Source of the DNA: a virus
Reading direction: 5' to 3' (one strand)
DNA length: 64,000 nt
Virus record (IMG/VR): IMGVR_UViG_3300032401_000008
Span: 3,858 to 67,857 of that record
The notes under the pieces were generated by a model. That model had not been told where the DNA came from. It saw only the letters and a list, made by a program, of their open reading frames with translations, and made no database searches. Positions 32,587 to 57,691 of the stretch are shown here, one piece after another (positions within the stretch are counted from its first letter, which is position 1; the number at the start of each line of letters is the position of its first letter). The translations under genes were made by a program, and so were the position numbers.

Positions 32587-34002
32587 ATGGCCGAAATAAA
32601 AACTATACAAACAATTCTGGCTGAACTTAGAACATTTCTAAGATCTTTTAATAGAAGCTTAGACACTGGGGATAACAGCCTATCAAAAGACCTACTGCTT
32701 ACACCCTATTCGTTAGCCGGAAAAGTAATTTTGGATCAAGTAGGTACCTTTAAAGACCTACATATTTTAGACTCGCTTTCCGGAACAGACTTAGATAATG
32801 AAGCATCAAACTATAAATTAGAAAGAAATACAGGTATAACTTCTACAGTTACACTTACATTTTATACAACGACAAGACCTATAGCAAACCTAACAATACC
32901 TGCCGCAACGCAAGTACAAACAGCAGGAACTACCTTATCTACACCAATTTCTTTTTCTACAAACGGTGACACCACTTTTTTGTTATCTGATGTAGACAGT
33001 TATTACTCTTACGATAGATCCAGGTATGAGTTTTCTGCGGCTGCTACATGTATTACAACAGGAACACTTGGAAATGTGGGTATTGGGTATATAGCAAAAC
33101 TAACTTCTTCTGTAACGGAAATTAGTGGTGTTACAAACTTAGTATCAGCTATAGGTGGTGCGGATCAAGAAATAGATGATGACCTTAGAGAACGTATTCG
33201 TCAAATAGCTACGGGAAGAGATCTAAACATAGTTCGCGGGCTAAACGCAGAACTAAAAAGTTTAGGTTTTCTAGACGCCTATGCTGTGCGCTCCGAGGAG
33301 AGCGAAGCAGAAAGGGCTACCGGAGCAGAAGTTTATGTTATAGATAACTCTATAGCAACCTATGTAGAAACGTTTACATATGATCCATCTAAATCTAGAT
33401 ATTACTTTTCTTTTAGGCCAATTTTAGATGTGTCTTATGTAATTACTTCAGGAGGAGTATTATCCATTGCTAATTATTCAGTAAATAAAGATTCAACCTC
33501 CCCACTTCGTAGAAGTGTTCAAGCGTTGGATTATATTGAGATATATGGAACAGCTGGGTTAGTCGCTGGAGAAACTTTTACTGTAACTTATTCATACTCT
33601 AATCAAATATATGCTTCCCAACAAACATTAGATTTGTCTGAAAATAAAATTCTAACTTCTGACTTGCTAATAAAAAAAGCATATCCTATGTATTTATACA
33701 TAAATGCTACCCTAACTCTTTTACAAAACGCAGATGCTCCTACGACAAGAAACAGAGTTAGAAATGCTTTATCTCAATATGTATCTACAGAGTACAGACT
33801 AAATACAGATATTCAGAAAAGCGATTTGGTTAATATTCTACAAGAAGGTTATGGTGATTATCCAGTAACAACTGTTGATGCTGTAATTATTAATAATTAT
33901 TATGTAAAAGATGAAAATGGTGTTGCATCTTTACCGATAAACGAAACTATAAGTATTAGCAAAAAACAACATGTTGTTCTTGCTAGTGCTGTGCTAATTT
34001 AG
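32587..34002 (+). CDS. baseplate J-like wedge protein
   Basis: GTDLDNEASNYKLER, GTLGNVG, VTNLVSAIGGADQEIDDDLRERI. Confidence 0.88.
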   Translation: MAEIKTIQTILAELRTFLRSFNRSLDTGDNSLSKDLLLTPYSLAGKVILDQVGTFKDLHILDSLSGTDLDNEASNYKLERNTGITSTVTLTFYTTTRPIANLTIPAATQVQTAGTTLSTPISFSTNGDTTFLLSDVDSYYSYDRSRYEFSAAATCITTGTLGNVGIGYIAKLTSSVTEISGVTNLVSAIGGADQEIDDDLRERIRQIATGRDLNIVRGLNAELKSLGFLDAYAVRSEESEAERATGAEVYVIDNSIATYVETFTYDPSKSRYYFSFRPILDVSYVITSGGVLSIANYSVNKDSTSPLRRSVQALDYIEIYGTAGLVAGETFTVTYSYSNQIYASQQTLDLSENKILTSDLLIKKAYPMYLYINATLTLLQNADAPTTRNRVRNALSQYVSTEYRLNTDIQKSDLVNILQEGYGDYPVTTVDAVIINNYYVKDENGVASLPINETISISKKQHVVLASAVLI

Positions 34003-34010
34003 GCGAAACA

Positions 34011-36641
34011 ATGGCGACAAGAACAAGCGTACAAAGTGGCCCCTGGTCAGATGCTGCTACATGGGGAGCAGCTGCTCCAGGGGTTGGGGATTTAGCTGTT
34101 ATTACTGGTGGTCACAGCGTATGGATTGACGGAGACATTACTGTCGGAGACGGATCAGCCAGCACTGCAACCCCAGCAATTAAAGTATACGGGGACTTAT
34201 TATGGCGTAACCAAGTTGGGGATGCTGCTGCAAACTGGACATTGACCCTGAATGGTTGGTTATATTTTAGTAGCGATACAACTGATCCACTTCAAAGTTC
34301 AGGTAGGTGGTTTATTGGTTCAAGTGGTGTCCATACTGTAGGTCCTACTACTGTTTCAGTTGGGCCAATCCCAAATACTAGAACAGCTACTGTGTATTTT
34401 AATCTTGCTGCTAACTATCATGATATTTATATTCTTAAAGCAAATGCAACACACGCAGGGCAACCCGCCTTTTATTTCTATGGTACACAAAAAGGTTTTG
34501 ATGTTGCACCAAGTACAAGCGGAACAGTAGATTCTGCCTCTGATAAAATTTCGTTTGTTGATAGTACCCTTACTGGTGCTGACGATTTATGGCGTGGGGC
34601 GTGGTTGGAAATTACCGGAGGCACAAATCTGGGTGAGTGTAGAGAAATTACGGCATACAATTCTGTTACAGACACACTTTCCTGGTCCCAATACGAACCA
34701 ATGCCTGTTGCGTGTGACAATACTACAACATACACATTAGTACATAACTATCAGCGCGCTTATCTGACAAATCATATCTCTGTATCTGGTGCGGGCAAAG
34801 CAATGACCGTTGACAGGCCCGTTAACTGGACAATTGGTCAACGAGTCGCAATTAGTGCAGGTGCTAATCAATCCGCCGCTCAGGTCGGTTACCGTGGTGA
34901 AGTTGCCACGATCGATGGTAAAGTTGACGAAAAAACCTATACTGTCAACTGTTCTTGGTTACATGATGTAGGCAACTTTGTTACCGTTATGGATAGAAAT
35001 ATTGTTTTCAATTCTACTGTTCCTGCTGGTGCGGGCGCGGCAAGAGGATTTAGGTTTAACTTAGCTGCTGGGGTGGCTACAACAATACCAACGTTTGTCT
35101 TTTCCTGGTGTCAATTTAGAAACTGCGGGTATAGTGGTGCGTTAATTTACACACAACAAATACCAAACTTTCCAACTATACAAAATTGTTCTGTAGAAGG
35201 ACAACTTTATAACGGGAATGCCAGCGTTACTGGTCCTGTAGTTTTTCTTGGTGGTATTAGTAGTTGTATGCCTGCAACAGCTTATCAACTGGATAATATT
35301 CATTGTGCTATGGTTCGTGGTATTTTGAATATGCAGAATGACTGGCAATCTGTAGTCAGCGGAGATACGGTTGAAAAACAAAAAGCTGCTTTATTTAGAG
35401 ACCTAACAATTACAAGTACAGATGGCGGTGCAGGGTATCTAGGAGCTTGTTATAATAGTTTTATCTATCCTCCTACATTTAAAAATACATGGTATTCAGG
35501 AATCACTCCTATAGCTACTACTGGTGGTGGTGGGTGTTTTACTGGAAGTATAAATATTGAAACATTACGTGTATTATGTATAACTAGCGGTAGTGGTATT
35601 GTTCTTGTTGGAGATAGTTTTAGTGTATCCCAGCCAAGTGCAGGTAGAGTAATAAAAATAAATAATGTCAATATGGTAGGAATCAATAGTACTTATTTTG
35701 CTATTCAACTGGCGGGAGTTGGTTGCAAAGCAACTAATATTTATATACAAAACTGCCGTATGCGTAACTGGGGAGCAGGCATATATTTATATGTGGCAGG
35801 ATTAGCGGATATATATCTTACCAACAATATGTATGATGAGATAAAAAGTACTACATACGGGGCTTTGTTTTTCGGAAGCGAGGAGATGTGTTGTAATGTA
35901 TATGAGGCAAATAGCAAATATGGTACTGTAGTACCGAATGTTTCAAAGAATGTAGGTATGATTAATACATATAATACTCGAACACAAGGAAGATATGTGT
36001 CTAATAACTGTACGTATGTAAATCCTTCTTCCCTTCTTTTAGGACCGGCACAAACAAATGCTGTGTTCAATATCCTTTCTTACACTCTTGTCAACCCACA
36101 AGGCACTTGGAATTATCTTATAGCTCCTATGGAACATTTTTGTGTAGAAGTAGCTAATGCAACCGTAAATGGTACTCCTAATAAGTTTTTGGCCGTTGGT
36201 CAGGGTGGTATGATTATCACTAAAGAGGCGCACCCGATCGACCCACGAGTAAATACCAATATACAACTTAAAGTAGTTCCAGGTAGTAGTGTTGGTCAAT
36301 GTGCGGTCAATAATCGTGCGCCTATTACTTATTATAAGGCTGCTGGGCAAACAATTACTGCTAGCGTATATGTTTTGAAAACTGTTTCACAGGTAACTGG
36401 TAAACGGCCACAATTGCATATGTTTATTGATGGCGCAGATCACGTATGTGAAATGTCAGATGTTACCGACACATGGGAGCAACTTACCCTAACACGTACT
36501 ATAACGAATAATGATGTTGCCAAAATTTGGTTTACTTGTTGTAATAATCCTCGTTATGTGGATAGTCATGCAAGTAGTTTTGCGGGTGAACCATTAATCA
36601 ATAGTGTAACTGTTTATTTTGATGAGTTAGATATTTCTTAG
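34011..36641 (+). CDS. large fibre/adhesin: G8-like N-terminus, beta-helix and C-terminal CBM-like domain
   Basis: SGPWSDAATW..PGVGD.AVITGGHSV; beta-helix repeats; ends TWEQLTLT..VYFDELDIS. Confidence 0.6.
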   Translation: MATRTSVQSGPWSDAATWGAAAPGVGDLAVITGGHSVWIDGDITVGDGSASTATPAIKVYGDLLWRNQVGDAAANWTLTLNGWLYFSSDTTDPLQSSGRWFIGSSGVHTVGPTTVSVGPIPNTRTATVYFNLAANYHDIYILKANATHAGQPAFYFYGTQKGFDVAPSTSGTVDSASDKISFVDSTLTGADDLWRGAWLEITGGTNLGECREITAYNSVTDTLSWSQYEPMPVACDNTTTYTLVHNYQRAYLTNHISVSGAGKAMTVDRPVNWTIGQRVAISAGANQSAAQVGYRGEVATIDGKVDEKTYTVNCSWLHDVGNFVTVMDRNIVFNSTVPAGAGAARGFRFNLAAGVATTIPTFVFSWCQFRNCGYSGALIYTQQIPNFPTIQNCSVEGQLYNGNASVTGPVVFLGGISSCMPATAYQLDNIHCAMVRGILNMQNDWQSVVSGDTVEKQKAALFRDLTITSTDGGAGYLGACYNSFIYPPTFKNTWYSGITPIATTGGGGCFTGSINIETLRVLCITSGSGIVLVGDSFSVSQPSAGRVIKINNVNMVGINSTYFAIQLAGVGCKATNIYIQNCRMRNWGAGIYLYVAGLADIYLTNNMYDEIKSTTYGALFFGSEEMCCNVYEANSKYGTVVPNVSKNVGMINTYNTRTQGRYVSNNCTYVNPSSLLLGPAQTNAVFNILSYTLVNPQGTWNYLIAPMEHFCVEVANATVNGTPNKFLAVGQGGMIITKEAHPIDPRVNTNIQLKVVPGSSVGQCAVNNRAPITYYKAAGQTITASVYVLKTVSQVTGKRPQLHMFIDGADHVCEMSDVTDTWEQLTLTRTITNNDVAKIWFTCCNNPRYVDSHASSFAGEPLINSVTVYFDELDIS

Positions 36642-36649
36642 GTAAATTC

Positions 36650-36916
36650 ATGGCAACTTTAACCTTTTTGTGGGGAACAGAACCCCAAGTTACCACAGGA
36701 ACCAAAGTTTTCCTATGTGGCACTGAACCGCAATACCGTCTTGGAGATTCTCCTATCCCGCCTGGTCCCACTACCAATTATATTTTTGAAATACTTATAG
36801 ATAATGCTGTTGTTTACTCATGTACTAATAACATGGCACAGGACGATGTTACAATAAACACAGAGGACTATTTAGGACTACATACTCTTACGTTTAGAAT
36901 CAGAGGTATCTCGTGA
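36650..36916 (+). CDS. small adaptor protein carrying middle strands of a jelly-roll (CBM-like) domain
   Basis: FL(W/C)GTEPQ twice, Pro linker, then FEILIDNAVVYS..DVTINTEDYLGLHTLTFRI. Confidence 0.55.
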   Translation: MATLTFLWGTEPQVTTGTKVFLCGTEPQYRLGDSPIPPGPTTNYIFEILIDNAVVYSCTNNMAQDDVTINTEDYLGLHTLTFRIRGIS

Positions 36917-37497
36917 AAATAATTTGGGTGGCAACAACTGGGGATGATACTACGGGAAACGGAGCACGAGAAACTCCTTACAAAACTATAGAAAAGGCAT
37001 TAACTGTCTTTGATAGTGGAGATCAAATACGTTTACTTTCAGGAACTTATATTACAACAGACTCCGTAGTAATTCAAGGAAAAGATGGATCTATTTTTGC
37101 AGAAGACCCGCAGGGTGCATACATACAACCAGAAAAAACAACGTTACATCAGGCAGGAATAGCTATTTTAGAGGCAGACAGATTTACTCTTCAAGGGATA
37201 AACGTAATTCAAGCAGCAGACAGTACAAATAACTTAATAGGTATCTTTGCAAGTAATATTGACAATTTTTTGTGTTATACCTGTTCTGTAAGTAACTTTG
37301 AGTCCCCTTCTGGAGACGGGTATGGTATTTTTGCCACAGGGTCTTTAGGTCGTGTAGAAGATTGTCATGTGTCAAATTTAATTTTTGGTGGAAATGTTTA
37401 CGGAATTAGAGTAATTGGACTAGATGTTATTGACTGTGAAGTAGAAAATTTATCTGGTGGACAAAATTGTTATTCTATATACGCAAGCCATGCTTAA
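36913..37497 (+). CDS. pectin-lyase-like beta-helix, N-terminal half (DUF1565-type start)
   Basis: IWVATTGDDTTGNGARETPYKTIEKAL..GDQIRLLSGTY; ends mid-coil at YSIYASHA. Confidence 0.7.
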   Translation: MKIIWVATTGDDTTGNGARETPYKTIEKALTVFDSGDQIRLLSGTYITTDSVVIQGKDGSIFAEDPQGAYIQPEKTTLHQAGIAILEADRFTLQGINVIQAADSTNNLIGIFASNIDNFLCYTCSVSNFESPSGDGYGIFATGSLGRVEDCHVSNLIFGGNVYGIRVIGLDVIDCEVENLSGGQNCYSIYASHA

Positions 37498-38107
37498 AAT
37501 TTATTCTATAATTTCTGAAGGCTCTGGGACTTCACCAAAAGAAATTTCTTTAAATTCCAATATATTACTGTACACAGATTCTTCTGGGGAAAATTTTGAC
37601 TGGGAAGTTTTATCTCAACCTGAAAACTCAAACGCTGTATTAGTAAACCCAACAAGTTATAAAACCAGGTTTGGCCCTTTAGACACTTATGGAGTATATG
37701 TAATACAATTATGGGTAGATAGAAACTTATCAACACAAAAAATGAATACTATTGCGCTATCTGTTCCAGAAGCGAAGTCTATTGTTACTCCAGCTGAACC
37801 AAAAACAGAGTATCATGGAAAAGTAAAAAATGGTGGTTTTGAAATAGCTGGGGATAGCCTCGGTTTAGCTGCTTTTTGGAACATTGTGGATACCGCAGGG
37901 ATTTTAGTTGTACCTTACGCAGGAACTACAAGAGGAAGAATCAAACCCGTAAATTTTACACCAACAGAAGAATATTCTATGTGTCTTGGTGATGATTTAG
38001 GAAACGTTTCTTCTTTTGTGGCGGGGGATGAATTTTCTATATCACAAGAAATAGATTTTACAAATACAAAACAACTAATTTTGAAATTCAAATATACTAA
38101 AAGTTAA
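37490..38107 (+). CDS. PKD/Ig-like domain plus N-terminal half of a CBM-like jelly roll
   Basis: FDWEVLSQPENS..DTYGVYVIQLWV; VKNGGFE..W..SISQEIDFTNTKQLILKFKY then stop; ATG 37490 coupled to the upstream stop. Confidence 0.65.
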   Translation: MLKIYSIISEGSGTSPKEISLNSNILLYTDSSGENFDWEVLSQPENSNAVLVNPTSYKTRFGPLDTYGVYVIQLWVDRNLSTQKMNTIALSVPEAKSIVTPAEPKTEYHGKVKNGGFEIAGDSLGLAAFWNIVDTAGILVVPYAGTTRGRIKPVNFTPTEEYSMCLGDDLGNVSSFVAGDEFSISQEIDFTNTKQLILKFKYTKS

Positions 38108-38140
38108 CTACAAGTACAACTAAAGCAGTAGAATTAAAAA

Positions 38141-39802
38141 ATGCCATTACCCGCTGCATATATAGATAATGTTCGCTTAGTAAGCAGTAAAACTATTTCC
38201 GTTCGTGGGAATATTGTATATGATTGCTACGGAGAAAATATTACTGGGATAAAGATAGATTCTTGTGAAGATGTAATTGTAAAAAATAATAAATGTGTAA
38301 GGCTACGTTCTAATGGCGGAATTGGTAGAGGATACCATATTTCTAACTGTGAAGAAACAAATTTAATTTACAACGTATCAAGTAGGGTTGATGTAGGTTT
38401 TGACTTTAGTTCACTAACAGAACTAATTATTTACAACTTAACGTCAAATAACACAGATATTTGTATTAGAACAGATAGTGATTGTACTATACGCAATTTA
38501 GCTCTGTCTTCAAGCAAAGAATGGAAATTATATAAAAATAACTTAGGTATATTTACGTTAGGAAGTTCCTCTGCAGATGTTGACTACTTAATTTATTCCG
38601 GAATAGGAACTCTATACTCTGGGTCTGCCACTTTTGGTTCAACAGTAAGTGAAAAAAGAATTTTATATATTGACGAAGAAAATGATGATCTAACTCCTGA
38701 TTATATTTCAGTTTTAGTAAATACAGGAACAGCAAACACAGTCTACTCTACTTACGTAGATACGGGTGGTGTAAGATCTCCTGTCACTGTAGAACAAACT
38801 GCAAAAATAAAATATTTTTATAGTTTGTTAGATAATGATTTTTGGGACGTAGAAAACGAAGAGTCTGCAGAAGTTTCTTTCATAAAGTCTATACAAAGTC
38901 GTGCTTTTGCATCAGCAGAAACAGAATTTAATGTCTCAAAAAATGATTATTACATAAAAACAATGACCTCTTCAAACGGGTTTGCTTCCTTATTTCCCGC
39001 TAATATGCGCTATCAAAATGCAAGCAAATTCAATAAAAGAGTAGCAGATTTATTTTACGCAACACAAGGACCTGGTGTAGTAGCCTCTATGCAAACAGGA
39101 ATAGGCGGGTATAACGTATATCCGTCGTTCTTTAGAAGAATAGAAGATGCTACTTTTGGGTGGATTTTAGCACAATCAGCAGTAGATGTAGATAACTGGT
39201 TATTAGGGTACGATGGAATACGCTATGGTATTTATGTTGACGTTTTAGGTACATCAACGTTATCTACAGCAACAAGCGGAGAATGTTATAATAATGTTAT
39301 GGATTGTGTAGCCGATATAGCTCCAGTAAAATGGTTCCTCCATAATGAACCACAACCAACAGGTTACAAATTATTTACAGATATGTGGAACGGTTTTGAA
39401 AATTGTACTTTATCAAATATGCAGTACAATGATGATTTTGCTATATCCCCTACACAAGAAGATCAAGATGGAAATATAACAACGCCGCTTATATCTACTA
39501 TAGGAGTAGTTGTTACAGGAACTAGCGTTTCTGGAGATAATGTAGAAATTTCATTATTAGATCGTATTTGGAGTGAAAATATTAGAAGAAAGCTGTATTA
39601 TAGACAAGGTACAAGTTCTTCTAATCTAACAGCCTGGGAAGAGATAAGAGAAACAATAGGTGGACACTTTTTAATAACAAACCCTTATATACAATTTAAA
39701 ATAACTATAGAAAATTTACCTAGAAAAAATGATTACGAGTTTATAGGTTTATGTTTTAGGGAGTATTCTATAGCAAGGGACTTTACTTTGCCGCAATCGT
39801 AG
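38141..39802 (+). CDS. baseplate wedge (gpI-like) protein with N-terminal CBM end-strand and C-terminal half of a beta-helix
   Basis: AYIDNVRLV; beta-helix coils ending in cap YIDEENDDLTPDYISVLVNTG; helical wedge-like middle; YIQFKITI. Confidence 0.55.
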   Translation: MPLPAAYIDNVRLVSSKTISVRGNIVYDCYGENITGIKIDSCEDVIVKNNKCVRLRSNGGIGRGYHISNCEETNLIYNVSSRVDVGFDFSSLTELIIYNLTSNNTDICIRTDSDCTIRNLALSSSKEWKLYKNNLGIFTLGSSSADVDYLIYSGIGTLYSGSATFGSTVSEKRILYIDEENDDLTPDYISVLVNTGTANTVYSTYVDTGGVRSPVTVEQTAKIKYFYSLLDNDFWDVENEESAEVSFIKSIQSRAFASAETEFNVSKNDYYIKTMTSSNGFASLFPANMRYQNASKFNKRVADLFYATQGPGVVASMQTGIGGYNVYPSFFRRIEDATFGWILAQSAVDVDNWLLGYDGIRYGIYVDVLGTSTLSTATSGECYNNVMDCVADIAPVKWFLHNEPQPTGYKLFTDMWNGFENCTLSNMQYNDDFAISPTQEDQDGNITTPLISTIGVVVTGTSVSGDNVEISLLDRIWSENIRRKLYYRQGTSSSNLTAWEEIRETIGGHFLITNPYIQFKITIENLPRKNDYEFIGLCFREYSIARDFTLPQS

Positions 39803-39810
39803 GAGCTATA

Positions 39811-42558
39811 ATGGAACGTTCAAAATACTTTAATTATACTAGACCAACCGCAACACAGTTAAATCATACAGAAGATTCCAGGTCTAGGTCTATTTTGCGA
39901 AGAATAGACAGCGCATGTCAAATGGGAATAGTTTCTGGATTTAGGGTTTTCGTAAACTCGCTAGATCCTACTCTTATAGACATTGGTGCAGGAACTGGAT
40001 ATACAGGCGGAAAATACGCCTCCTTAGACATTGGTGATGATGGTTCTGGAGAGCGCATTTCTACAATTACTTCAGGTACAACAGTAGTTGGGCAGGCTTT
40101 AGCAGATTATACATCTGGGGTAAAAAACTATATTTCTTTAATCTATACGGAAACAGAAGTGGATCCGCTAACAGAAATTTTTTATCCTTTTACTGCTCAT
40201 GACACTGTTGTTTCAGAAGATTTTACGGTATCTTCTTTGTCAGAAACAGACTGGAATTTACTTACTGTAGACCAAAAAAGAAATAGAATTTTGGTGGCTA
40301 TAGTTACCGCACAGGGTGCAGGAAATGCATTAACTTCTGCGGACATTCAACAAGTAGTTCAACCACTAAATCATCCTACCCCGTCTGCAACATCAAATGT
40401 TACTGGGGTTACTTTTGTTGGTATAGCCAAAACTACGCTTATGGGGTCTGCAACACTGCGGTTTGAATCGGCATCAAAAAAATTATTCTGGACTGCGCCT
40501 GGAGATACGGAAGGCGCTGGTGTTACTTTTACTTCTTCTAGTACTGCTGTTCTATATTCCAATGATACTACATATTGGATACAAGTCTCTGTAGTCTATG
40601 CTAGTTTACCTGCTGCAGACGCTACAGATACTATAAATATTTCATCTCTTTATGGAAAAACAATCCCTAGGTTTAGTGCGGACGATACACTACACAGAGA
40701 CCTGTTAGGGTCTGGAACACCCACAGCAACAAACCCGCATGGGATGACACTAAATGACATAGAGGGAGGAACATTTGACCATGCAGATTTGTACCATAAA
40801 AATGGAATATCAATAGAGGCAGATAGTACCCAATTACTTTGTTCTATAAATTTGATAAATGATTATATTGAAGTAAACAATATTGGCGGGTTCAGAAATA
40901 GTTTTCTAGTTGACGGGCTTTCATATGAAACACTAACGGGATATGCCGCAGGTACTGATGGGATATTAGCTTTTTCATCCACGACACCATCCGCAGATTA
41001 TTTGATATATGTAGATTCTGCTGGAGCGCCCCAAAAAGTAAGGATAGCAAGTTATGTACCAGCAGGTGCAGGAGATTTAAATGTTTTATGGTCTGCAAAT
41101 ATTTCAATTTTAGATATTCACAACACTCTTGCCGGGAGCGGAATTATTTCCTGGGACGGAACAAATTTAACTTATCAAGCACCATTAGACGGTACACCCG
41201 GATCACAAGTTTTAGTTTTACCCATAGGCACTCCGTCTGGAATATATAAATTATATTCTGATACTACTAGTGAATACATTATAGTTTCTATTAGTGGTAG
41301 TCTTGGTGGTGCAAATAGTTCTACGTTTACTACAGATAAAAATGAAACTACATATGCAGATGAAAACATACTAAAACTAGCCACAGTAACTTGGAACGCT
41401 ACAGGAGAACTTCTAGGAAATCTTCGGGATATACGCCAATTTAGAACAGCGGATGTACGTGATGATTTACTAGAAGAACATGATGCTACTGGAAAACATA
41501 CACGAGTTATACCAAATACACTAAAGGTTGGGGTTGCCAGTGGGCCTGCTGTATATGCGGTTGCCGATGGAAGTTTGGGTGTTTGGGCACGCGCTAAAGA
41601 TCAAGCCGGATATTTTACTGCCTCTGGATCAACCAACGTTACTGTACACGGCGTATCCGCAACGGCTAGAAATACGTCACAAGCAGCTAAGGCAATAGCA
41701 GTAAAAGCGGAGGCGGAAAGCGGAACTGGTGTGTGGGCCTCTGGTGTTGTTGGCGCTTATTGCATTGGAAGTGCTGGTAATGGCGTATGTGCTTCTGGAA
41801 TTCCAGCTGTTTATGGTGCGGCCAATGCGGCGGGGTTTTTTGGATCTATTGGTGTTCTGGGTGTGGCGAATGATATAGCTGTATGGGGTCAAGGAAGCGC
41901 TATAGGTGTTCTAGGTATAGCAGACGAAATAGGCGGAGGCTTTAACGCAACCGTTTCCGGTGTTGGTGTAAGTGCTTATGCTAATCAAGGTATAGGAGCA
42001 GATATTGGTGCTGCGAATGGAACTGGAATATATGTTAGTGTTCTAACTGGTAGAGGCGGCGCTTTTACAGTAGACAAGGGCGTGTATGGTCTAGAGGTGA
42101 AAAATTCTAACTCTTCTGCTGTAGATATATACGGAGCCAGTTTTTTAGCGATAAACGCATCAAATCATGCAGATGCTAGCGCTATAGGAGTATATGGCTC
42201 GGGATCAGCAGCAGGTGCGCTAGGAACAGGCATCGGAGTAATTGGCATCGGCGAGATCGGTGTTTCTGCTAATGGTGTAAGTGTTGGTGTTCTTGGTGGA
42301 CAATACATTGGACCAACTGTTCTTGTCGGCGTAGCTGGGTATGGTAGTTCGACTGGAGGTGCGTTTGGTGGTAAAACTGCAGTACAAGCACTTGGTAACA
42401 CCGTAGCTATCGATGGCCAGGCCCCACAGTTTTTAAGGTGGTCTTCCGCTTGGGTTGTGCCAAACGCATTAGATACAGGTAGTGCCATACCTATTAGCGT
42501 GTTTATTGGTGGGGGTTGGACAACTATGTGTATTCCTATTTATAATATAGCCCCATAG
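39811..42558 (+). CDS. tail fibre protein
   Basis: Baseplate-anchor N-terminus (GIVSGFRV..IDIGAGTGY), TNPHGMT motif, internal duplicated domain, Gly-rich G(V/I)xG C-terminal repeats. Confidence 0.7.
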   Translation: MERSKYFNYTRPTATQLNHTEDSRSRSILRRIDSACQMGIVSGFRVFVNSLDPTLIDIGAGTGYTGGKYASLDIGDDGSGERISTITSGTTVVGQALADYTSGVKNYISLIYTETEVDPLTEIFYPFTAHDTVVSEDFTVSSLSETDWNLLTVDQKRNRILVAIVTAQGAGNALTSADIQQVVQPLNHPTPSATSNVTGVTFVGIAKTTLMGSATLRFESASKKLFWTAPGDTEGAGVTFTSSSTAVLYSNDTTYWIQVSVVYASLPAADATDTINISSLYGKTIPRFSADDTLHRDLLGSGTPTATNPHGMTLNDIEGGTFDHADLYHKNGISIEADSTQLLCSINLINDYIEVNNIGGFRNSFLVDGLSYETLTGYAAGTDGILAFSSTTPSADYLIYVDSAGAPQKVRIASYVPAGAGDLNVLWSANISILDIHNTLAGSGIISWDGTNLTYQAPLDGTPGSQVLVLPIGTPSGIYKLYSDTTSEYIIVSISGSLGGANSSTFTTDKNETTYADENILKLATVTWNATGELLGNLRDIRQFRTADVRDDLLEEHDATGKHTRVIPNTLKVGVASGPAVYAVADGSLGVWARAKDQAGYFTASGSTNVTVHGVSATARNTSQAAKAIAVKAEAESGTGVWASGVVGAYCIGSAGNGVCASGIPAVYGAANAAGFFGSIGVLGVANDIAVWGQGSAIGVLGIADEIGGGFNATVSGVGVSAYANQGIGADIGAANGTGIYVSVLTGRGGAFTVDKGVYGLEVKNSNSSAVDIYGASFLAINASNHADASAIGVYGSGSAAGALGTGIGVIGIGEIGVSANGVSVGVLGGQYIGPTVLVGVAGYGSSTGGAFGGKTAVQALGNTVAIDGQAPQFLRWSSAWVVPNALDTGSAIPISVFIGGGWTTMCIPIYNIAP

Positions 42559-47964: not shown

Positions 47965-48056
47965 GTATACATATTTTAAAAAAGAACAACCTTACTATAA
48001 GAAAGGAAGCAAGTTTGCCTTGGCGTGCATGCTAAGGTTTACTTACTGAAGTCCCC

Positions 48057-48572
48057 ATGAAAAAATTAATATTGTTTCTTGCCTTCTTTGTTGGGTGTTT
48101 TTCGTTTATTCAAGCAGACACAGGAAGGGCGGCTAATCTTCCCATTAGAAGCACATCCATTACAGATGGAAATTCTAAAGCTATTCGTTCAACCGCTCTT
48201 GGAGATCTACTAACCATAGGGTATCCTTTGCTGCTTTCTGTTAATGCTTCTAACTGTGTAGCGGCAACTGCGATCAGCACACAGTTTACACTACCAACTA
48301 CCCCAAGTAAAGTATTTAGAATCTGTGGCGGCGGCGGTCTTTCGTCCTACGCTTTTATTTCTTGTGGGACGAACCCAACGGCTACAACAACCGCAGCTAG
48401 CGGGTTTGTACTGCCTCCTTTAGCAGACGGACAATGCCTGCCCGCCATGGAAATACAGGCGGCAAAATGTGCAGTGATAGGAGGATCTTCTGTTGGAGGA
48501 GCCTCCGCAGCTGGTGGGGCGGTATGCTTTCTTCAGCTGGTTAACCCCACTGGACTTCCTGTAGGGTCGTGA
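48057..48572 (+). CDS. signal-peptide-bearing Cys-containing beta protein
   Basis: MKKLILFLAFFVGCFSFIQA Sec-type signal. Confidence 0.6.
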   Translation: MKKLILFLAFFVGCFSFIQADTGRAANLPIRSTSITDGNSKAIRSTALGDLLTIGYPLLLSVNASNCVAATAISTQFTLPTTPSKVFRICGGGGLSSYAFISCGTNPTATTTAASGFVLPPLADGQCLPAMEIQAAKCAVIGGSSVGGASAAGGAVCFLQLVNPTGLPVGS

Positions 48573-51496
48573 ATATGATGCGTACTGCAATAGTCTGTTT
48601 GCTTTTGCTTGTAGGACTAGCTGCAAAAGCAAATGACGATGAAGAAGGATATTCCCCAAACCTGCTGGTTATGTCCTATGATTTTACATACAACGGTAGA
48701 TACACTACCTATAGTGGGATACCTTCTGGTTGTTGGACATTCGAAACTTCTGTTGGGGCGACCCTGCCCGCTGAATGCGCCGGGACTACTGTGCTTACCG
48801 TCGCAGGTAATCCTAGCAAAGTAACCGATGCGACCTATCCTACCGGAATTGGAGCCACTTCTCCGCAAGGCTACGCCTATCGCCTGGACGGAACCGGAGA
48901 CTATCTCTCAGTTTCTAATGGCGCGGGCGGATCAATATACAACCCAGCAGGAGCATTCAGCATCTTTGTTGTAATAACACCGACTACAGGATTTACTACC
49001 GGGGATACAATTGTGTCCAAAGGCACGCCTACTGCCAACCAGCGCGGATGGCGCTTATATGCTAGCACGGCTACTACGGCTGCGTTTGCTGTCACTGATG
49101 ATGGAACTTCTGGTGTTGGGCACATGACAACACTTACTAGATCTACAGCTTTTGCAGTCGGACGCCAGGCGTGTATTGTAGCCAGTTATTCTGGTGGAGT
49201 AGATGGTGCAATATCTGGCTTTTTGCTGGTTGACTCACTAGCGGCTACAACTAGTGCTGTCATGGATGGGCCTGTCTACGCTAATTCTGGGCCACTAACT
49301 CTAGGTGCGGATGGCGATACTACCGGGGATGCACCAATGGAGATACACCATTTCGAGTACCTAGGGGGTGCAGCTCTAACTCAGGCCGAAGCACTTTATA
49401 AGTGTAGATACTGGTACGGGACTACTGCCGTTAAAGGATCAGCATTGGCTATCACCTATTCAGTACCCGCAGCTTTTCCTTATGCTCCTCCTGATTCAGG
49501 GACTGAGCCTTGGCTGCTTACCCCCGCACCTAACTGCGCACGGGTTGGATCACCTGAAACTGGTAGAGGGGGCCTCTACGGTAGCTCGTCAATAACAAAC
49601 AACCTGTACAGGGCGCAGATCTGCAAGACCGTCTCTGGAGGTCACCCCTCTACAGGCGGTTGGGCAGTTCCAACTGAGGCTCCTGGGGATGGGTCTGCTG
49701 ATGTGGTCTGTAGTACTACGAGATATGCTGAGGGCTATGAATCCCTGCGAATGGACCTAGTGGGTACAACCAGCGTGGCGCAGCAATGTTCGATTTGTTA
49801 CACCTCTGCATCCGTAATTGCGGCCAAAACATATTTTAGTGCTCAAGTTTTACCCTCTGCTAACTCGACCCCAGTATTGACCCTAGAAGAATACGATACG
49901 GCGGCTTGTGGCACCTTGCTGGCGACAAATACTGCGACCTTGGTACTGGACACACCTGGCTGGGATTCCTATGGTGGGGCTATTGCGGCGGCGTCTTGGA
50001 ACGCCTCCACCTCTAGTTATCGGATTTGCATGACTGAAACTTGTAATGGGGGCTGCACAACATATTGGGACGCTCCACAACTGCGGGCCTCAGGTACCCC
50101 GTCTGGGACCAGCGCTATCCCAACAGACGGGTTCTGCGGCGGGAATGCAGATTCGACAGCAGCTTGTGGACCCAGCAACTACGCTTTCGTAAACCCAATC
50201 CCTCCAGTTGGAAAATTTGAGATCGAACAGGTTCGGTCGTCACCGTCAGACGGTACCGATACAGTATATACTTTGGTGGTCCCAAAAACTGGGGGGTCCT
50301 TTAATAACAGAATACAATGGGTGTTCTCTACCTTCACCCTGTATGATTCTTTGGGCGTAGCCCATTCTGTATCTCCAGGGGTCTCATATAGTTATGCGAG
50401 CAACCATGAATTCAAAGCTGTAGCCTGGAGAGATACAAACCTTATAGTGTCTACATCGGTTGACGACTATGAAGACGGAACTGTATTCTCTGGAGGAGCA
50501 ACCGATGCTATGTCTGCAACTGGCTATATTGGAGGTACTGCCGCTAATTATAATGTCTGGACTAGATACCTGAAGATCCGCAAGAAGGTTACCGGAACTA
50601 CTCTTAGTGGAGATCCCAACTGGTATCCTGACACCAACTATTGGTCGGTGGTTCAACTGGCAGACACACAGATTGTGGCAGAGTCCTGGCCTGCGGAACT
50701 AGCTCCTCAAGTTGAGTGGATCATAAACCACGCTACAGAACAGAAAACAGGAATGGTCATGCACCTAGGTGACGTAGTTAACACCGAGAATATAGTAGCT
50801 CAATGGACTGTCAGTGACACAGAGTTTTCCAAGTTTGATGCAGCCTCTTTAGCCTGGATGGTAACTCCTGGCAACCACGATTACGTAACCCCTTGGTCCT
50901 CTGATCCTTCAGCGGTGCCAACAACTTTTCTATCGTACTTCGGTCCAACGCGGTTCGAGCTAAAACCATACTGGGGTGGGCGCAGCCTCAACGAATTAAA
51001 TACTTGGACAACAATTAGTCTAGGGGGAGTTACTTATATATTCCTTATGCTTGAGTTAGACACTCCCGCAGCTGCTATCACATGGGCAGAGTCTATTATC
51101 ACTGCTCACCTCGGTGTGCCTGTGATTGTTGGGACTCACCAGTATCTTCTCGACAACACACAGGCACGAAGCACAGTACCTGTTATTCGTACTGGCGGGG
51201 TTGGTGGAGACACATTATGGGCTATGCTAAAAACCCACGATGAAGTTAGAATGGTTTTGTGTGGTCACTATGTTAATGCTAGTGGTGATGGGCACTTAAC
51301 TTCACTCAATGATGCAGGACACGATGTTCACCAGATAATTTCCAACTACCAAGAGCGTTACCACGGAAGTAATCAGCTTGTTCGGTTGTATAGAATATAT
51401 CCAGCCCTCAATATGATGCAAGTTAGAACTTATTCGGTTAGGACAGGCATGTGGGGCTTAGGATCACTAGAACGTTGGGATACCACTTGGCGATAG
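48569..51496 (+). CDS. signal peptide, LamG/ConA-like and CBM-like domains, calcineurin-like metallophosphoesterase
   Basis: LDGTGDYL..FSIFV; YWDAPQLR; LADTQ, HLGDVVN, PGNHD, GTHQY, CGHY. Confidence 0.75.
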   Translation: MNMMRTAIVCLLLLVGLAAKANDDEEGYSPNLLVMSYDFTYNGRYTTYSGIPSGCWTFETSVGATLPAECAGTTVLTVAGNPSKVTDATYPTGIGATSPQGYAYRLDGTGDYLSVSNGAGGSIYNPAGAFSIFVVITPTTGFTTGDTIVSKGTPTANQRGWRLYASTATTAAFAVTDDGTSGVGHMTTLTRSTAFAVGRQACIVASYSGGVDGAISGFLLVDSLAATTSAVMDGPVYANSGPLTLGADGDTTGDAPMEIHHFEYLGGAALTQAEALYKCRYWYGTTAVKGSALAITYSVPAAFPYAPPDSGTEPWLLTPAPNCARVGSPETGRGGLYGSSSITNNLYRAQICKTVSGGHPSTGGWAVPTEAPGDGSADVVCSTTRYAEGYESLRMDLVGTTSVAQQCSICYTSASVIAAKTYFSAQVLPSANSTPVLTLEEYDTAACGTLLATNTATLVLDTPGWDSYGGAIAAASWNASTSSYRICMTETCNGGCTTYWDAPQLRASGTPSGTSAIPTDGFCGGNADSTAACGPSNYAFVNPIPPVGKFEIEQVRSSPSDGTDTVYTLVVPKTGGSFNNRIQWVFSTFTLYDSLGVAHSVSPGVSYSYASNHEFKAVAWRDTNLIVSTSVDDYEDGTVFSGGATDAMSATGYIGGTAANYNVWTRYLKIRKKVTGTTLSGDPNWYPDTNYWSVVQLADTQIVAESWPAELAPQVEWIINHATEQKTGMVMHLGDVVNTENIVAQWTVSDTEFSKFDAASLAWMVTPGNHDYVTPWSSDPSAVPTTFLSYFGPTRFELKPYWGGRSLNELNTWTTISLGGVTYIFLMLELDTPAAAITWAESIITAHLGVPVIVGTHQYLLDNTQARSTVPVIRTGGVGGDTLWAMLKTHDEVRMVLCGHYVNASGDGHLTSLNDAGHDVHQIISNYQERYHGSNQLVRLYRIYPALNMMQVRTYSVRTGMWGLGSLERWDTTWR

Positions 51497-51522
51497 CCTA
51501 AAAAGTTTTCCAGTTTATTAAC

Positions 51523-51563
51523 TAAAAGTTGCAAATGGTACAATAATTAGGAAAATCTATGTC
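51523..51563 (+). repeat. 41-bp direct repeat, copy 2
   Basis: taaaagttgcaaatggtacaataattaggaaaatctatgtc. Confidence 0.9.
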
Positions 51564-52041
51564 GCTAAAAAAGTTTAACTGGGATGAAGATGAAAGTCTT
51601 TCTATTGATATAACACAATTAGGGGGGAATACTATTGCAACAGGATCAGGAGAAGTTACCGCAGGAACAATAAGAGTTGCAGTAGCATCGGAGAATAGCT
51701 CACTAGTATCAGAAACTGATCAAACAGCAGGCACTTACCATTATTATATAGATATGTCTGGTTATAATAAGTTAAGTTTACAATTATATCTACCTACGTT
51801 TACAGCAGGATCTACAATAAAAGTGTATGGAACTAATCAAAGTAACGAGGCAGCTGACTCATGTGTTTACGGCGATATAACCTCCTCGGTATTTGGTATA
51901 AATAGTGTCATATCAACATCTTTCCTTGTAGATGACGTTGGTACTTGTGGAATGTTTCGCTTTATACGAGTAACAGTAGCAATAGGTGCGGGCGGAAGTG
52001 GAATTGATGATTATACTATTTGGAGCAAGAAGTCTAACTAA
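51559..52041 (+). CDS. virion decoration/fibre-like protein, paralogue 2
   Basis: YYIDMSGYNKLSLQLYLPTFTAGSTIKVYGT, close to the 47503 product. Confidence 0.6.
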   Translation: MSLKKFNWDEDESLSIDITQLGGNTIATGSGEVTAGTIRVAVASENSSLVSETDQTAGTYHYYIDMSGYNKLSLQLYLPTFTAGSTIKVYGTNQSNEAADSCVYGDITSSVFGINSVISTSFLVDDVGTCGMFRFIRVTVAIGAGGSGIDDYTIWSKKSN

Positions 52042-52147
52042 CAAAGAGCTTACACAATGGCTTCTATAGTAAGTCAGAGAACAGTTCAAATTGTTAAAGG
52101 AATCCTTTCAAGAAGGCTTTTTGAAACGTAGAGATTAAGGAGATATA

Positions 52148-53407
52148 ATGTCAATTGCTAAATTTAGTTGGGACGCTTCTGGCGCTACAGGTACAGCGAT
52201 TATACAAGGTGAGTATACACCTCCAGCGGGTGATACGCAAATAACTAATATACAAACAGATATAACCGGAAGATTAATTGTAGCTGGTGGCAGCGATGCT
52301 AATATCGTAGAGATTGGCGGTAACGCAATTGGTTCTGACGCAGGAGCCAGTACTGCGGGTACCTTGCGAACCGTAACTGCAAGCGATTCACCCGAGGTGA
52401 CAGCACTGCAAATTATTGACGACTGGGATGAGGGTGACAGAGCCAAAGTCAACGTGATAGTTGGGCAGGCTGGAATAACCGCAGGTGTGGGCGCCGTAGC
52501 AGCTAACACCCCTCGCGTGACTCATGCCTCGGATGATCCTGTTACGACCTCTGTGCAGATTATGGACGACTGGGACGAATCAGACCGCGCCAAAGTAAAT
52601 CTTATTGCTGCTCAAGCAGGTATCACTGGTGGAAACGGCGCCGTAGCAGCTAACACCCCTCGCGTGACTCATGCCTCGGATGACCCCGTAACCACCGCTG
52701 TGCAGATTATGGATGATTGGGATGAATCGGACCGCTGCAAAGTCAACATCAATCTAAACGCAGGTGTGGCAGTATCGGTGAACTCAGGAGCTACTGATGC
52801 AGGGACTATCCGTGTTACTCTAGCAACAGACGGGCCTATTGGCTCTTGCACAAATACCGATGATTCAGCTATCGGAACTAAGGGTCTATCTATCGTCGCC
52901 AAAGCCAAGACCGCTCAGAGAGCAGCCGTAGCTGATGTTGACGCAGTACAAATAGTTTCTAATGAGTATGGTGAGTTAGTTGTCTCTGGTCATACTTGGG
53001 CTACTAGGTCTATTCGCTGTGAAGAAATTGACCCGCTCGATCAAAAGTATGTTGGTGAAACTATTGCAGTAGTAACAAATGCTACAGGCGCACCAACTAC
53101 TTATAACTACTATGTTGATATGGGTGGATATACAAGTATTGGTTTCCAATGGGTATTATCTTTTAGCGCGGGAAGTACAATAAAAGTATATGGTTCACTA
53201 CAAGATGATGGAACAGCTCCCGCTAGCTGCTCGTATAGCGATTTAACTACTGCCCTTTGGGGTGTAGCTTCAATAACCGCTAGCGGAACTAACTTTGATA
53301 CTACGGGAACACTCGGTTTATGTAAATATGTGAAAATAGAAGTAATTATTGGTGTTGCGGGATCGGGGGCAGACGATTATACAATTTATTGTAAAAGAGC
53401 TTGGTAA
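52148..53407 (+). CDS. fibre-like protein, paralogue 3, with 49-aa tandem repeats
   Basis: TAAGGAG SD; repeats VTHASDDPVTT.VQIMDDWDESDR.KVN; same C-terminal domain as paralogues 1 and 2. Confidence 0.65.
   Translation: MSIAKFSWDASGATGTAIIQGEYTPPAGDTQITNIQTDITGRLIVAGGSDANIVEIGGNAIGSDAGASTAGTLRTVTASDSPEVTALQIIDDWDEGDRAKVNVIVGQAGITAGVGAVAANTPRVTHASDDPVTTSVQIMDDWDESDRAKVNLIAAQAGITGGNGAVAANTPRVTHASDDPVTTAVQIMDDWDESDRCKVNINLNAGVAVSVNSGATDAGTIRVTLATDGPIGSCTNTDDSAIGTKGLSIVAKAKTAQRAAVADVDAVQIVSNEYGELVVSGHTWATRSIRCEEIDPLDQKYVGETIAVVTNATGAPTTYNYYVDMGGYTSIGFQWVLSFSAGSTIKVYGSLQDDGTAPASCSYSDLTTALWGVASITASGTNFDTTGTLGLCKYVKIEVIIGVAGSGADDYTIYCKRAW
52370..52750 (+). repeat. 147-bp-period intragenic tandem repeat (~2.5 copies)
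   Basis: ggcgccgtagcagctaacacccctcgcgtgactcatgcctcggatga at 52490 and 52637. Confidence 0.85.
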
Positions 53408-53432
53408 ATACTTTTATATTTAGGAGCTAACC

Positions 53433-54209: not shown

Positions 54210-54297
54210 TGCGTATTTTAAATTAGGCTATTTTAGGAGACACATAGATGCATAGCTTTGTATTGTTTAGTATGCCTGCCTCAAATGAGGTATAACC

Positions 54298-57606: not shown

Positions 57607-57691
57607 TTTTTTAGCTAACAACCCCTCTAAAATTAATCCCCTCCAAAACCCAAAATCTTGTGTATATTACCTTTAGAACTCAGGAGCACGC

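What the first reader, a model, noticed from the sequence alone, without database searches (positions are those of the whole stretch)
36650..38760. Two protein folds split and shuffled across four adjacent baseplate genes: candidate assembly by inter-chain fold complementation
Seen: gene C (37490-38107) ends mid-domain, VKNGGFE..W..SISQEIDFTNTKQLILKFKYTKS*. Gene A (36650-36916), which lies UPSTREAM of C, ends NYIFEILIDNAVVYS..DVTINTEDYLGLHTLTFRIRGIS*. Gene D (38141) starts MPLPAAYIDNVRLV. Read in the order C+A+D, these give a complete galactose-binding-like jelly roll, from the NGxFE start to the canonical YIDNVRL last strand. Separately, gene B (36913-37497) is a DUF1565-type beta-helix that stops mid-coil (..YSIYASHA*). 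Gene D resumes beta-helix coils right after its first strand (KTISVRGNIVYDC..) and supplies the C-cap. The A/B and B/C junctions show tidy translational coupling (GTGA overlap at 36913-36916; ATG 37490 overlapping the previous end), which argues against decay or misassembly. Inference: the wedge protein D nucleates a four-chain complex in which folds are completed in trans. A, with its FL(W/C)GTEPQ x2 N-terminus, may clip the 876-aa adhesin (34011) onto the baseplate, giving a modular plug-in attachment system for receptor-binding modules. A less likely alternative is RNA-, DNA- or protein-level re-joining.
Basis: partly seen in the sequence, partly recalled or inferred. Interest (0 to 1): 0.88.

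Follow-up and report, generated by a model that had tools for sequence, protein, structure and literature searches.

The report
Three-protein shared fold in phage baseplate
Four small neighbouring tail genes of an uncultured phage are real and conserved, and modelling suggests that three of their products each supply strands to one shared beta-sandwich that fastens them together.

Summary
Genes A (36650-36916), B (36913-37497), C (37490-38107) and D (38141-39802) read as quoted, with a 4-nt A/B overlap and an 8-nt B/C overlap. They are not decay or misassembly. The order A-B-C-D recurs in distant metagenomic phages at 35-60% protein identity. Contigs from other runs cross all three junctions without indels.

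The jelly-roll claim gains in-silico support:
- AlphaFold2 folds C residues 1-95 at block-mean pLDDT 88-97 but leaves 96-205 at 29-39.
- D's first 15 residues dangle below pLDDT 50.
- In a four-chain model, A 42-88 pairs strand to strand with C 176-205 and touches D 3-13. The ipSAE is 0.89 against a best control of 0.58.
- The A domain occurs only in genomes that have C.

The beta-helix claim is not supported. B is a complete module. It stands alone in 12 relatives and is joined through Pro/Gly linkers to unrelated domains in others. It is fused to D once, through a 15-residue linker.

Verdict: a probable heteromeric beta-sandwich joint. It is a new variant of strand donation, and it is untested at the bench.

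The parts
32587..34002 (+). Baseplate J (T4 gp6-like) wedge gene; conserved anchor of the locus
   Evidence: Pfam Baseplate_J 1.2e-14 and phrog_6 2.1e-25. tblastn gives 47-59% identity in L001-L006.
34011..36641 (+). 876-aa adhesin-type protein with a beta-rich C-terminal domain ending ..VTVYFDELDIS
   Evidence: ORF. Weak homologues (22-45% over parts) lie in the same position in L004, L005, L011, L013, L014 and L020, and elsewhere in G001 and G004. No Pfam or PHROG family.
36650..36769 (+). A, residues 1-40: N-terminal tag with a twice-repeated short motif (FLWGTEPQ / FLCGTEPQ) followed by a Pro/Gly linker
   Evidence: Equivalent twice-repeated Gly/aromatic/Pro tags head the A proteins of relatives. 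They also head the larger tag-Ig-B proteins P0041 and P0042 and the tag-Ig-A protein of L033.
36770..36916 (+). A, residues 41-88: conserved beta segment (..FEILIDNAVVYS..DVTIN..HTLTFRIRG) predicted to supply strands to the shared sandwich
   Evidence: Invariant E47 L49 V55 S57 G76 F82 R83 I84 R85 in 7 sequences. Interface residues 42-88 in the complex model.
36913..37497 (+). B: self-contained ~195-aa right-handed beta-helix module (DUF1565-type start)
   Evidence: Pfam PF07602 at 22.7 bits. It aligns at 46-62% identity with 11 free-standing relatives that end at the same place, and a twelfth (L007) was seen. The same module is fused to varied domains in P0001-P0007.
37490..37774 (+). C, residues 1-95: Ig/PKD-like domain that folds on its own
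   Evidence: AlphaFold2 block-mean pLDDT 88-97. Profile hits to KIAA0319 PKD domains at 3.5e-4.
37775..38107 (+). C, residues 96-205: conserved half beta-sandwich (VKNGGFE .. TRGRI .. CLGDD .. FSISQEIDF .. LILKFKYTKS) that does not fold alone
   Evidence: Block-mean pLDDT 29-39 alone, with the same 12-row alignment. It holds 18 invariant residues, all between N114 and D189. Interface residues 112, 133, 156-157, 164, 166-167, 176-191 and 193-205.
38141..38185 (+). D, residues 1-15: N-terminal arm (LPAAYIDNVRL), predicted donor strand
   Evidence: pLDDT below 50 in the monomer model. Residues 3-13 lie in the interface with A. The arm is a conserved native N-terminus in 16 of the 18 database hits that reach it.
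38186..39802 (+). D, residues 16-553: beta-helix-like region (18-180), helical middle and C-terminal beta domain; a conserved peripheral tail or baseplate protein of unknown identity
   Evidence: AlphaFold2 model. No clear structural neighbour and no PDB sequence relative. 32 database relatives.

Best explanation
A, B, C and D are four real, tightly packed, probably co-translated structural genes at the edge of a contractile-tail baseplate. C carries a normal Ig/PKD domain followed by about 95 conserved residues that form only part of a beta-sandwich. The small protein A supplies the missing strands from its conserved C-terminal 47 residues. The first ~13 residues of D lie against this as a donated arm. 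The result is one beta-sandwich built from three different polypeptides. It acts as a joint that fixes C and A onto D. A's N-terminal tag, a twice-repeated short motif followed by a Pro/Gly linker, is free to hold another part, most likely the adhesin encoded just upstream. B is not part of this fold. It is a complete beta-helix module that other relatives use as the conserved N-terminal part of tail fibres with exchangeable distal domains. Status of each step: the genes and their conservation are shown. The incompleteness of C, the A-C strand pairing and the role of the D arm are predicted. The tag-adhesin link and the function as a joint are inferred.
For: 1) Conservation. The order A-B-C-D, or B-C-D, recurs with separate ORFs in L003, L004, L005, L006, L007, L013, L015, L020 and L030 at 35-62% identity. 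The frame combinations differ between loci. C's stop lies between an 8-nt overlap and a 10-nt gap from D's start in all 11 related loci that have C.
2) C alone. AlphaFold2 with 12 rows gives block-mean pLDDT 88-97 for residues 1-95 and 29-39 for 96-205. The ESM Atlas model of the same protein is also poor, with pTM 0.43 and mean pLDDT 0.63. Yet all 18 invariant residues of the family lie between N114 and D189.
3) D alone. With 29 rows, residues 1-15 fall below pLDDT 50 while 21-170 score block means of 75-93.
4) Complex of C, D 1-210, B and A, with A as the scored partner. ipSAE was 0.90, 0.89 and 0.75, median 0.89. Controls gave 0.06 and 0.00 with A replaced, and 0.58 with D replaced. The mark was reached by 58 of 80 solved complexes and 2 of 110 mismatched pairs. 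The runs agree in at least 73% of contacts, and partner pLDDT is at least 58. The antiparallel pairs C182-187/A84-78 and C196-202/A69-62 have an expected error of 0.4-0.6 A. D 3-13 is in the interface and B is not.
5) No solved relative exists for A or D by sequence, so the pass is unlikely to come from memory of a like complex.
6) Co-occurrence. The A domain was found in 7 related places: L004, L005, L006, L007, L013, L020 and L033. All are genomes with C. It was found in 0 of 12 C-less loci and in neither C-less record G002 nor G003. C-bearing rows are not one clade on the D tree: 4 changes, 2 of them forced by well-supported branches.
7) In L006, C runs on after its usual end directly into a Pro/Gly linker. 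So the usual end of C is a chain boundary tolerated by the fold, not a truncation.
Against: - Everything that bears on the fold is prediction.
- The tool's calibration used pairs of single chains with its own alignments, so it holds only roughly for four chains with my alignments.
- With D replaced, the score is still 0.58. D's arm is therefore the least secure part.
- The mean pLDDT of the other chains was 82, 83 and 90 with A, against 81, 83 and 77 in the controls. That gives no clear sign that C gains order when A is present.
- D's arm is also conserved in phages that lack both A and C, so it must have another or additional partner.
- In L003's genome, the A domain is encoded about 19.6 kb from B-C-D.
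- No sequence method ties the pieces to a jelly-roll family. There was no Pfam CBM match at E <= 1. hhalign of the C and A families against the adhesin's C-terminal domain gave probability 0.3%. ESM Atlas feature scores of 0.75-0.81 are below its 0.9 bar.
- The alignments are shallow: 7-29 rows.
- Homo-oligomeric completion of C was not tested.
Confidence: 0.55

Rival explanations
1. Ordinary separate subunits. Each protein folds on its own or as a homo-oligomer, for example a strand-swapped C trimer, and they merely sit side by side. On this view the predicted A-C-D sandwich is a modelling artefact that pairs beta edges of hard-to-model segments.
For: Low pLDDT for C 96-205 could reflect a shallow 12-row alignment and an uncommon fold. 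The pLDDT of the other chains hardly differs between real and control runs. No sequence similarity to any jelly-roll family was found. D's arm is kept in phages without A and C.
Against: The same 12 rows fold C 1-95 at block-mean pLDDT 88-97. Replacing A with unrelated proteins drops the score to 0.06 and 0.00. Only 2 of 110 mismatched pairs reached the mark. The interface falls exactly on the most conserved segments of A and C. The A domain is found only where C is found.
Confidence: 0.25
2. Two-chain complementation only. A completes C's half-sandwich. D's arm binds something else, such as B or the J wedge, as it must in phages that lack A and C.
For: The score stays at 0.58 when D is replaced. 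All of the lowest-error pairs are C-A pairs. The arm is conserved in 13 C-less rows. B and D are adjacent in every C-less locus and are fused in P0014.
Against: The score rises by 0.31 with D present, and D 3-13 is listed in the confident interface. C's stop and D's start are coupled in all 11 related loci with C. Proline at arm position 8 occurs in 0 of 10 C-bearing rows and 10 of 13 C-less rows. Only 2 independent contrasts exist, so this cannot be tested statistically.
Confidence: 0.15
3. Broken or recoded genes. B-C or C-D was one gene, now split by a frameshift, a nonsense mutation, an assembly error or programmed recoding.
For: C and D share a frame in the window. B's relatives are often fused to downstream domains. 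One B-D fusion exists.
Against: Three in-frame stops separate C from D. The frame combinations of B, C and D differ among relatives while the ORF limits are kept. Twelve relatives have free-standing B ORFs of 196-208 aa. Contigs from other runs show no indel at the junctions. None of the 8 longer B relatives carries a C-like domain.
Confidence: 0.03

Closest known systems
Beta-sheet augmentation ('handshake') of contractile sheaths and the gp25-like wedge protein
   Same: Terminal arms of neighbouring chains become integral strands of a domain of another chain, so one small beta domain is built from three chains. This was read in passages of PMC10811340. A related tripartite donor-strand exchange was read in passages of PMC13266070.
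   Different: In the sheath, the three chains are copies of one protein and each donates a single arm. Here three different gene products are predicted to contribute. One of them (A) gives several strands, and the acceptor (C) lacks a large part of its fold.
Donor-strand complementation in chaperone-usher pili (recalled, not checked here)
   Same: An incomplete Ig-like fold is completed by the N-terminal extension of the next subunit, much as D's N-terminal arm is predicted to add a strand.
   Different: In pili one strand completes an otherwise whole fold, in a homopolymeric chain of subunits. Here about half of a sandwich comes from a second protein and a further strand from a third.
(gp6)2-gp7 core bundle and trifurcation unit of the T4 baseplate (recalled, not checked here)
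   Same: An inter-chain structural unit made by different baseplate gene products next to the gp6/J protein.
   Different: No sequence or fold relation was found. The J homologue here lies upstream and was not modelled with these proteins.
Modular tail fibres or spikes with a conserved N-terminal anchor and exchangeable distal domains; branched receptor-binding complexes of CBA120- and G7C-type phages (recalled)
   Same: B is a conserved N-terminal module followed by unrelated distal domains in P0001-P0007, P0042 and the B-X genes of L001 and L002. A's tag next to an adhesin gene suggests plug-in docking.
   Different: Here the modules are separate genes. The predicted docking device is a shared fold rather than a peptide bound to a complete domain.

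Membership tests
Galactose-binding-like / CBM jelly roll (for the composite C + A + D domain) | Significant profile match to a CBM or galactose-binding-like family | tested here: not met
   No such Pfam family at E <= 1 for A, C or D. hhalign of the C and A families against the adhesin's C-terminal beta domain gave probability 0.3%.
Galactose-binding-like / CBM jelly roll (for the composite C + A + D domain) | Two-sheet jelly-roll topology in a 3D model of the assembled domain | not testable with these tools
   The complex tool returns contacts but no model. Only leads exist: ESM Atlas feature hits of 0.75-0.81 to DUF4627, DUF642, CBM_4_9 and GalBD_like clusters, below the 0.9 bar.
Right-handed beta-helix, DUF1565 type (B) | Pfam PF07602 above its gathering score | tested here: met
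   22.7 bits against a cut-off of 20.3, but only profile positions 2-39. NosD scored 14.7, below its cut-off of 23.6. There are weak profile hits to phage tail spike chains 8fqc_P1 and 9rkv_M.
PKD/Ig-like domain (C residues 1-95) | Pfam PKD family above its gathering score, or an Ig-like fold | tested here: inconclusive
   K319L-like_PKD scored 15.6 bits against a cut-off of 27. A profile hit to the KIAA0319 PKD domain scored 3.5e-4. AlphaFold2 gives a seven-strand beta domain at block-mean pLDDT 88-97.
Strand donation / fold complementation between chains | The acceptor domain is incomplete and the donor segments are unstructured when alone | tested here: met
   In silico only. C 96-205 has block-mean pLDDT 29-39 and D 1-15 is below 50.
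Strand donation / fold complementation between chains | Inter-chain beta pairing that beats controls | tested here: met
   ipSAE 0.89 against a best control of 0.58. The mark was reached by 58 of 80 solved complexes and 2 of 110 mismatched pairs. Antiparallel C-A strand pairs were listed. This is a prediction, not a structure.
Strand donation / fold complementation between chains | Experimental structure or binding | not testable with these tools
   No solved relative of A or D.
Baseplate J (gene 32587-34002) | Pfam PF04865 above its gathering score | tested here: met
   54.7 bits against a cut-off of 21.1.

The most novel reading that the evidence does not exclude
A single jelly-roll-type domain is obligatorily assembled from three different gene products. 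Their gene order (A, then C, then D, with B between A and C) is permuted relative to the strand order (C, A, D). The domain works as a three-key lock: C cannot fold, and A with its adhesin-holding tag cannot be mounted, unless all three meet on D. This would be a heteromeric split domain used as a plug-in socket for receptor-binding modules. It has been lost together with A at least twice in the family.
Probability: 0.35. Interest if true: 0.8.

Novelty: new variant of a known kind. Interest (0 to 1): 0.62.

Why it matters
If confirmed, this would be a clear natural case of one small beta domain divided among three different proteins. That bears on two questions: how folds can be split and still assemble, and how phages couple exchangeable host-recognition parts to a conserved baseplate. 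It also carries a practical warning. Single-chain structure prediction and domain annotation will miss or misread such proteins, because C's second half, A and D's arm all look like "nothing" when taken alone. The family is small and known only from metagenomes. The claim is directly testable by co-expressing three short constructs.

Tried and rejected
- Readthrough of C into D was rejected: three in-frame stops lie in the spacer.
- A B/C frameshift was rejected: the frame combinations differ among relatives.
- The phage record collection gave no DNA or protein match for the region or for D.
- A single-protein scan of viral contigs with D found nothing.
- Scanning viral contigs with the C alignment returned only four contigs already held.
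- The genome-contig scan returned only a contig of the same length as G001.
- Searches for longer proteins holding C 100-205 or A 40-88 found none. This is weak evidence, as the tool itself says.
- hhalign of the C and A families against the adhesin's C-terminal domain gave probability 0.3%.
- Foldseek of the D model gave no clear neighbour. In the PDB there was one hit at E <= 1e-3 with TM 0.15-0.21. In BFVD there were 7 hits at E <= 1e-3, all with TM below 0.3.
- I wanted to fold the natural B-D fusion P0014. MAFFT could not align free B rows and D rows to it correctly in any subset tried. A8 was not used, and the second fold went to D alone.
- The link between proline in D's arm and loss of C could not be tested: only 2 independent contrasts exist.
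- A strain variant in run X4 changed 14 codons in C (6 synonymous, 8 not) and 7 in D (6 synonymous, 1 not), with no stops or indels. That is too few for a selection test.
- Run X1 laid nothing, which the tool says is no proof of absence.
- Not tested: B with D, B with C, C with itself, and A's tag with the adhesin.
- Two literature searches for this kind of split fold in phage tails found nothing on point. Two others gave the sheath examples cited.
- Supplementary files of papers were not consulted.
Full report
WHAT IS THERE. The window is 64 kb of a 67,857-bp virus record. It carries a contractile-tail module. A tail sheath gene was identified by phrog_2839 and a Baseplate J gene at 32587-34002 by Pfam at 1.2e-14. 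Downstream, all on the + strand, lie:
- an 876-aa adhesin-type gene (34011-36641);
- A (36650-36916, 88 aa);
- B (36913-37497, 194 aa);
- C (37490-38107, 205 aa);
- D (38141-39802, 553 aa);
- a 915-aa fibre-like gene.

A's TGA overlaps B's GTG. C's ATG lies 8 nt inside B. C and D share a frame but are separated by TAA, TAG and TAA within 33 nt.

THE GENES ARE REAL AND SEPARATE. A scan with D against 1.84 billion representatives gave 32 relatives. Profile scans of IMG/VR and JGI metagenomes gave 6 + 26 loci. Five of these are the same contigs found twice, leaving 27 distinct loci. tblastn, ORF maps and local HMM searches show three layouts upstream of D.
- Layout 1 is A-B-C-D as in the window. 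It occurs in L004, L005, L007, L013 and L020. Variants are J-A-B-C(long)-D in L006, J-B-C-D in L003, and cut versions in L015, L030, L009 and L024.
- Layout 2 has one or two free B genes directly before D, with no C. It occurs in L010, L016, L017, L019, L022, L023, L032, L011 and L014.
- Layout 3 has B fused to large variable C-terminal domains before D. It occurs in L001, L002 and L012.

C is present in 11 of the 27 loci. In all 11, its stop lies between an 8-nt overlap and a 10-nt gap from D's start. In 10 of 11 it ends at the same column as the window's C. B, C and D occupy different frame combinations in different loci, so a conserved frameshift or readthrough is not credible. Contigs from runs X2, X3 and X4 cross the A/B, B/C and C/D junctions without indels. 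X3 and X4 are not flagged as possible sources of this DNA. Decay and misassembly are therefore excluded.

B IS A WHOLE MODULE, NOT A HELIX CUT MID-COIL. Eight longer proteins match B. Seven of them cover 94-98% of it at 47-61% identity. In all seven the similarity ends where B ends. It is followed by Pro/Gly-rich linkers and unrelated domains: LamG-like domains, a chitobiase-type Ig domain and others. Twelve relatives have free-standing B ORFs of 196-208 aa with the same end. One protein, P0014 (758 aa), is a natural B-D fusion. B matches at 46% identity over residues 1-190 and D at 47% over 206-739. Between them lie 15 Ser/Pro-rich residues and then D's arm. So even here the two helices are not one continuous coil. 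In the complex model, A made no confident contact with B. B and D are clearly partners in some sense. A B module was found upstream of D in 21 of 27 loci. Five of the other six are cut too short to tell, and one (L028) has room and none. Fold completion between B and D has no support. I could not test B-D binding.

THE C + A + D SANDWICH. C's N-terminal 95 residues form an Ig/PKD-like domain. Its last ~95 residues are the best conserved part of the family: all 18 invariant residues lie between N114 and D189. They are shorter than a usual jelly roll. Four results bear on the shared fold.
- With a 12-row alignment, AlphaFold2 gives block-mean pLDDT 88-97 for residues 1-95 and 29-39 for 96-205. 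The ESM Atlas model of the same protein is similarly poor.
- With 29 rows, D folds as a beta-helix-like region from 18 to 180 with block means of 75-93 over 21-170, while residues 1-15 stay below 50.
- A has a variable N-terminal tag and a conserved C-terminal segment.
- The one complex job held C, D 1-210, B and A, each as an alignment, with A as the scored partner. It gave ipSAE 0.90, 0.89 and 0.75, median 0.89. Controls gave 0.06 and 0.00 with A replaced and 0.58 with D replaced.

The mark for that job was reached by 58 of 80 solved complexes and 2 of 110 mismatched pairs. The runs share at least 73% of contacts, and partner pLDDT is at least 58. The confident interface is A 42-88 with C 112, 133, 156-157, 164, 166-167, 176-191 and 193-205, and with D 3-13. 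The lowest-error pairs describe two antiparallel ladders:
- C FSISQE (182-187) against A HTLTFRI (78-84);
- C LILKFKY (196-202) against A MAQDDVTI (62-69).

Neither A nor D has a solved relative by sequence, so memory of a known complex is an unlikely source.

INDEPENDENT GENOMIC SUPPORT. The A domain (profile positions 37-87) occurs only where C occurs. In relatives it was found in 7 places: L004, L005, L006, L007, L013, L020 and L033. It was found in none of 12 C-less loci and in neither C-less record G002 nor G003. In L003's complete 183,765-bp genome, A is not next to B. It is encoded about 19.6 kb away as a 184-aa tag-Ig-A protein, 272 nt downstream of an adhesin gene. On a tree of D, C-bearing rows are not one group: 4 changes, at least 2 of them forced. 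The A/C pairing has therefore survived or been lost together more than once. The number of independent contrasts is too small for a test. In L006, C continues past its usual end straight into a Pro/Gly linker and 240 more residues.

CAVEATS.
- All fold evidence is prediction from shallow alignments.
- The complex tool's calibration fits pairs of single chains, not four chains.
- The D-replaced control still scored 0.58, so the A-C pairing is firmer than the role of D's arm.
- The pLDDT of the other chains was about the same with A (82, 83, 90) as in the controls (81, 83, 77).
- D's arm is also kept in phages without A and C, mostly with proline at position 8. That residue is proline in 10 of 13 C-less rows and 0 of 10 C-bearing rows. 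The arm must therefore have another partner in those phages.
- Nothing ties the pieces to a named jelly-roll family. The ESM Atlas hits to galactose-binding-like clusters score 0.75-0.81, which the tool rates as leads only.

THE TAG AND THE ADHESIN. A's first ~40 residues hold a twice-repeated short motif and a Pro/Gly linker. Relatives have equivalent repeats, such as GEWGDGLPL twice in L005 and DG(A/V)FP twice in L004, L006 and L020. The same kind of tag heads the tag-Ig-B protein P0041 of L011, the tag-Ig-B-X protein P0042 of L014, and the tag-Ig-A protein of L033. Besides the window's own A, there are nine distinct tag-bearing genes in relatives. Seven follow an adhesin-type gene directly (L004, L005, L007, L011, L013, L014, L020). 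L033's follows at 272 nt. L006 is the exception: its adhesin lies 44 kb away. That the tag holds the adhesin is an inference from synteny alone.

COMPARISON WITH WHAT IS KNOWN, AND VERDICT. Donated arms that become strands of another chain's domain are standard in contractile tails. The sheath handshake is one case (passages of PMC10811340) and tripartite donor-strand exchange is another (passages of PMC13266070). Heteromeric shared units are known from the T4 wedge (recalled). What is unusual here is that three different small gene products are predicted to share one sandwich. One of them gives several strands, and the gene order is permuted relative to the strand order. I rate this a new variant of a known kind, with moderate to high interest. 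The probability is about 0.55 for the three-chain version.

Noticed in passing
L003 9992-12121 and 12131-12577; L004 9995-12127 and 12137-12583; L005 9992-12115 and 12124-12573: In these relatives D is about 150 aa longer (707-710 aa). It is followed by a 148-149-aa gene whose C-terminus resembles the end of that extension (..RDSS.PGD.L......GRT.). The window's D is the short form (553 aa) and has no such gene after it.
   Followed up: no
window 48000-58000: G+C is 0.43-0.50 here, against 0.33-0.41 in the rest of the window. The 975-aa ORF at 48569-51496 has no PHROG match.
   Followed up: no
L039 (genome contigs) = same length as G001/L003 record, 183765 bp: A contig of the same length as the phage contig with direct terminal repeats is filed in a genome collection as a scaffold of a Candidatus Paceibacterota metagenome-assembled genome. 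This may be a binning artefact or a hint about the host. No host can be inferred from it.
   Followed up: no
L006 8653-9990: Here C is 451 aa. The usual C is followed by a Pro/Gly linker and 240 further residues ending ..YDWIKVDDIKPTVTLRVQG. A and D are still present in this locus.
   Followed up: partly
window 39811-42558: The 915-aa protein after D is conserved in all six IMG/VR relatives at 40-49% identity. Its C-terminal third is rich in Gly/Ala/Val repeats (GVxA-type), which suggests a fibre.
   Followed up: no
L016 3352-4956: A 534-aa protein carries about 340 residues of Ig-like repeats in front of a B module. B can therefore sit at the C-terminal end of a protein as well as at the N-terminal end.
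   Followed up: no
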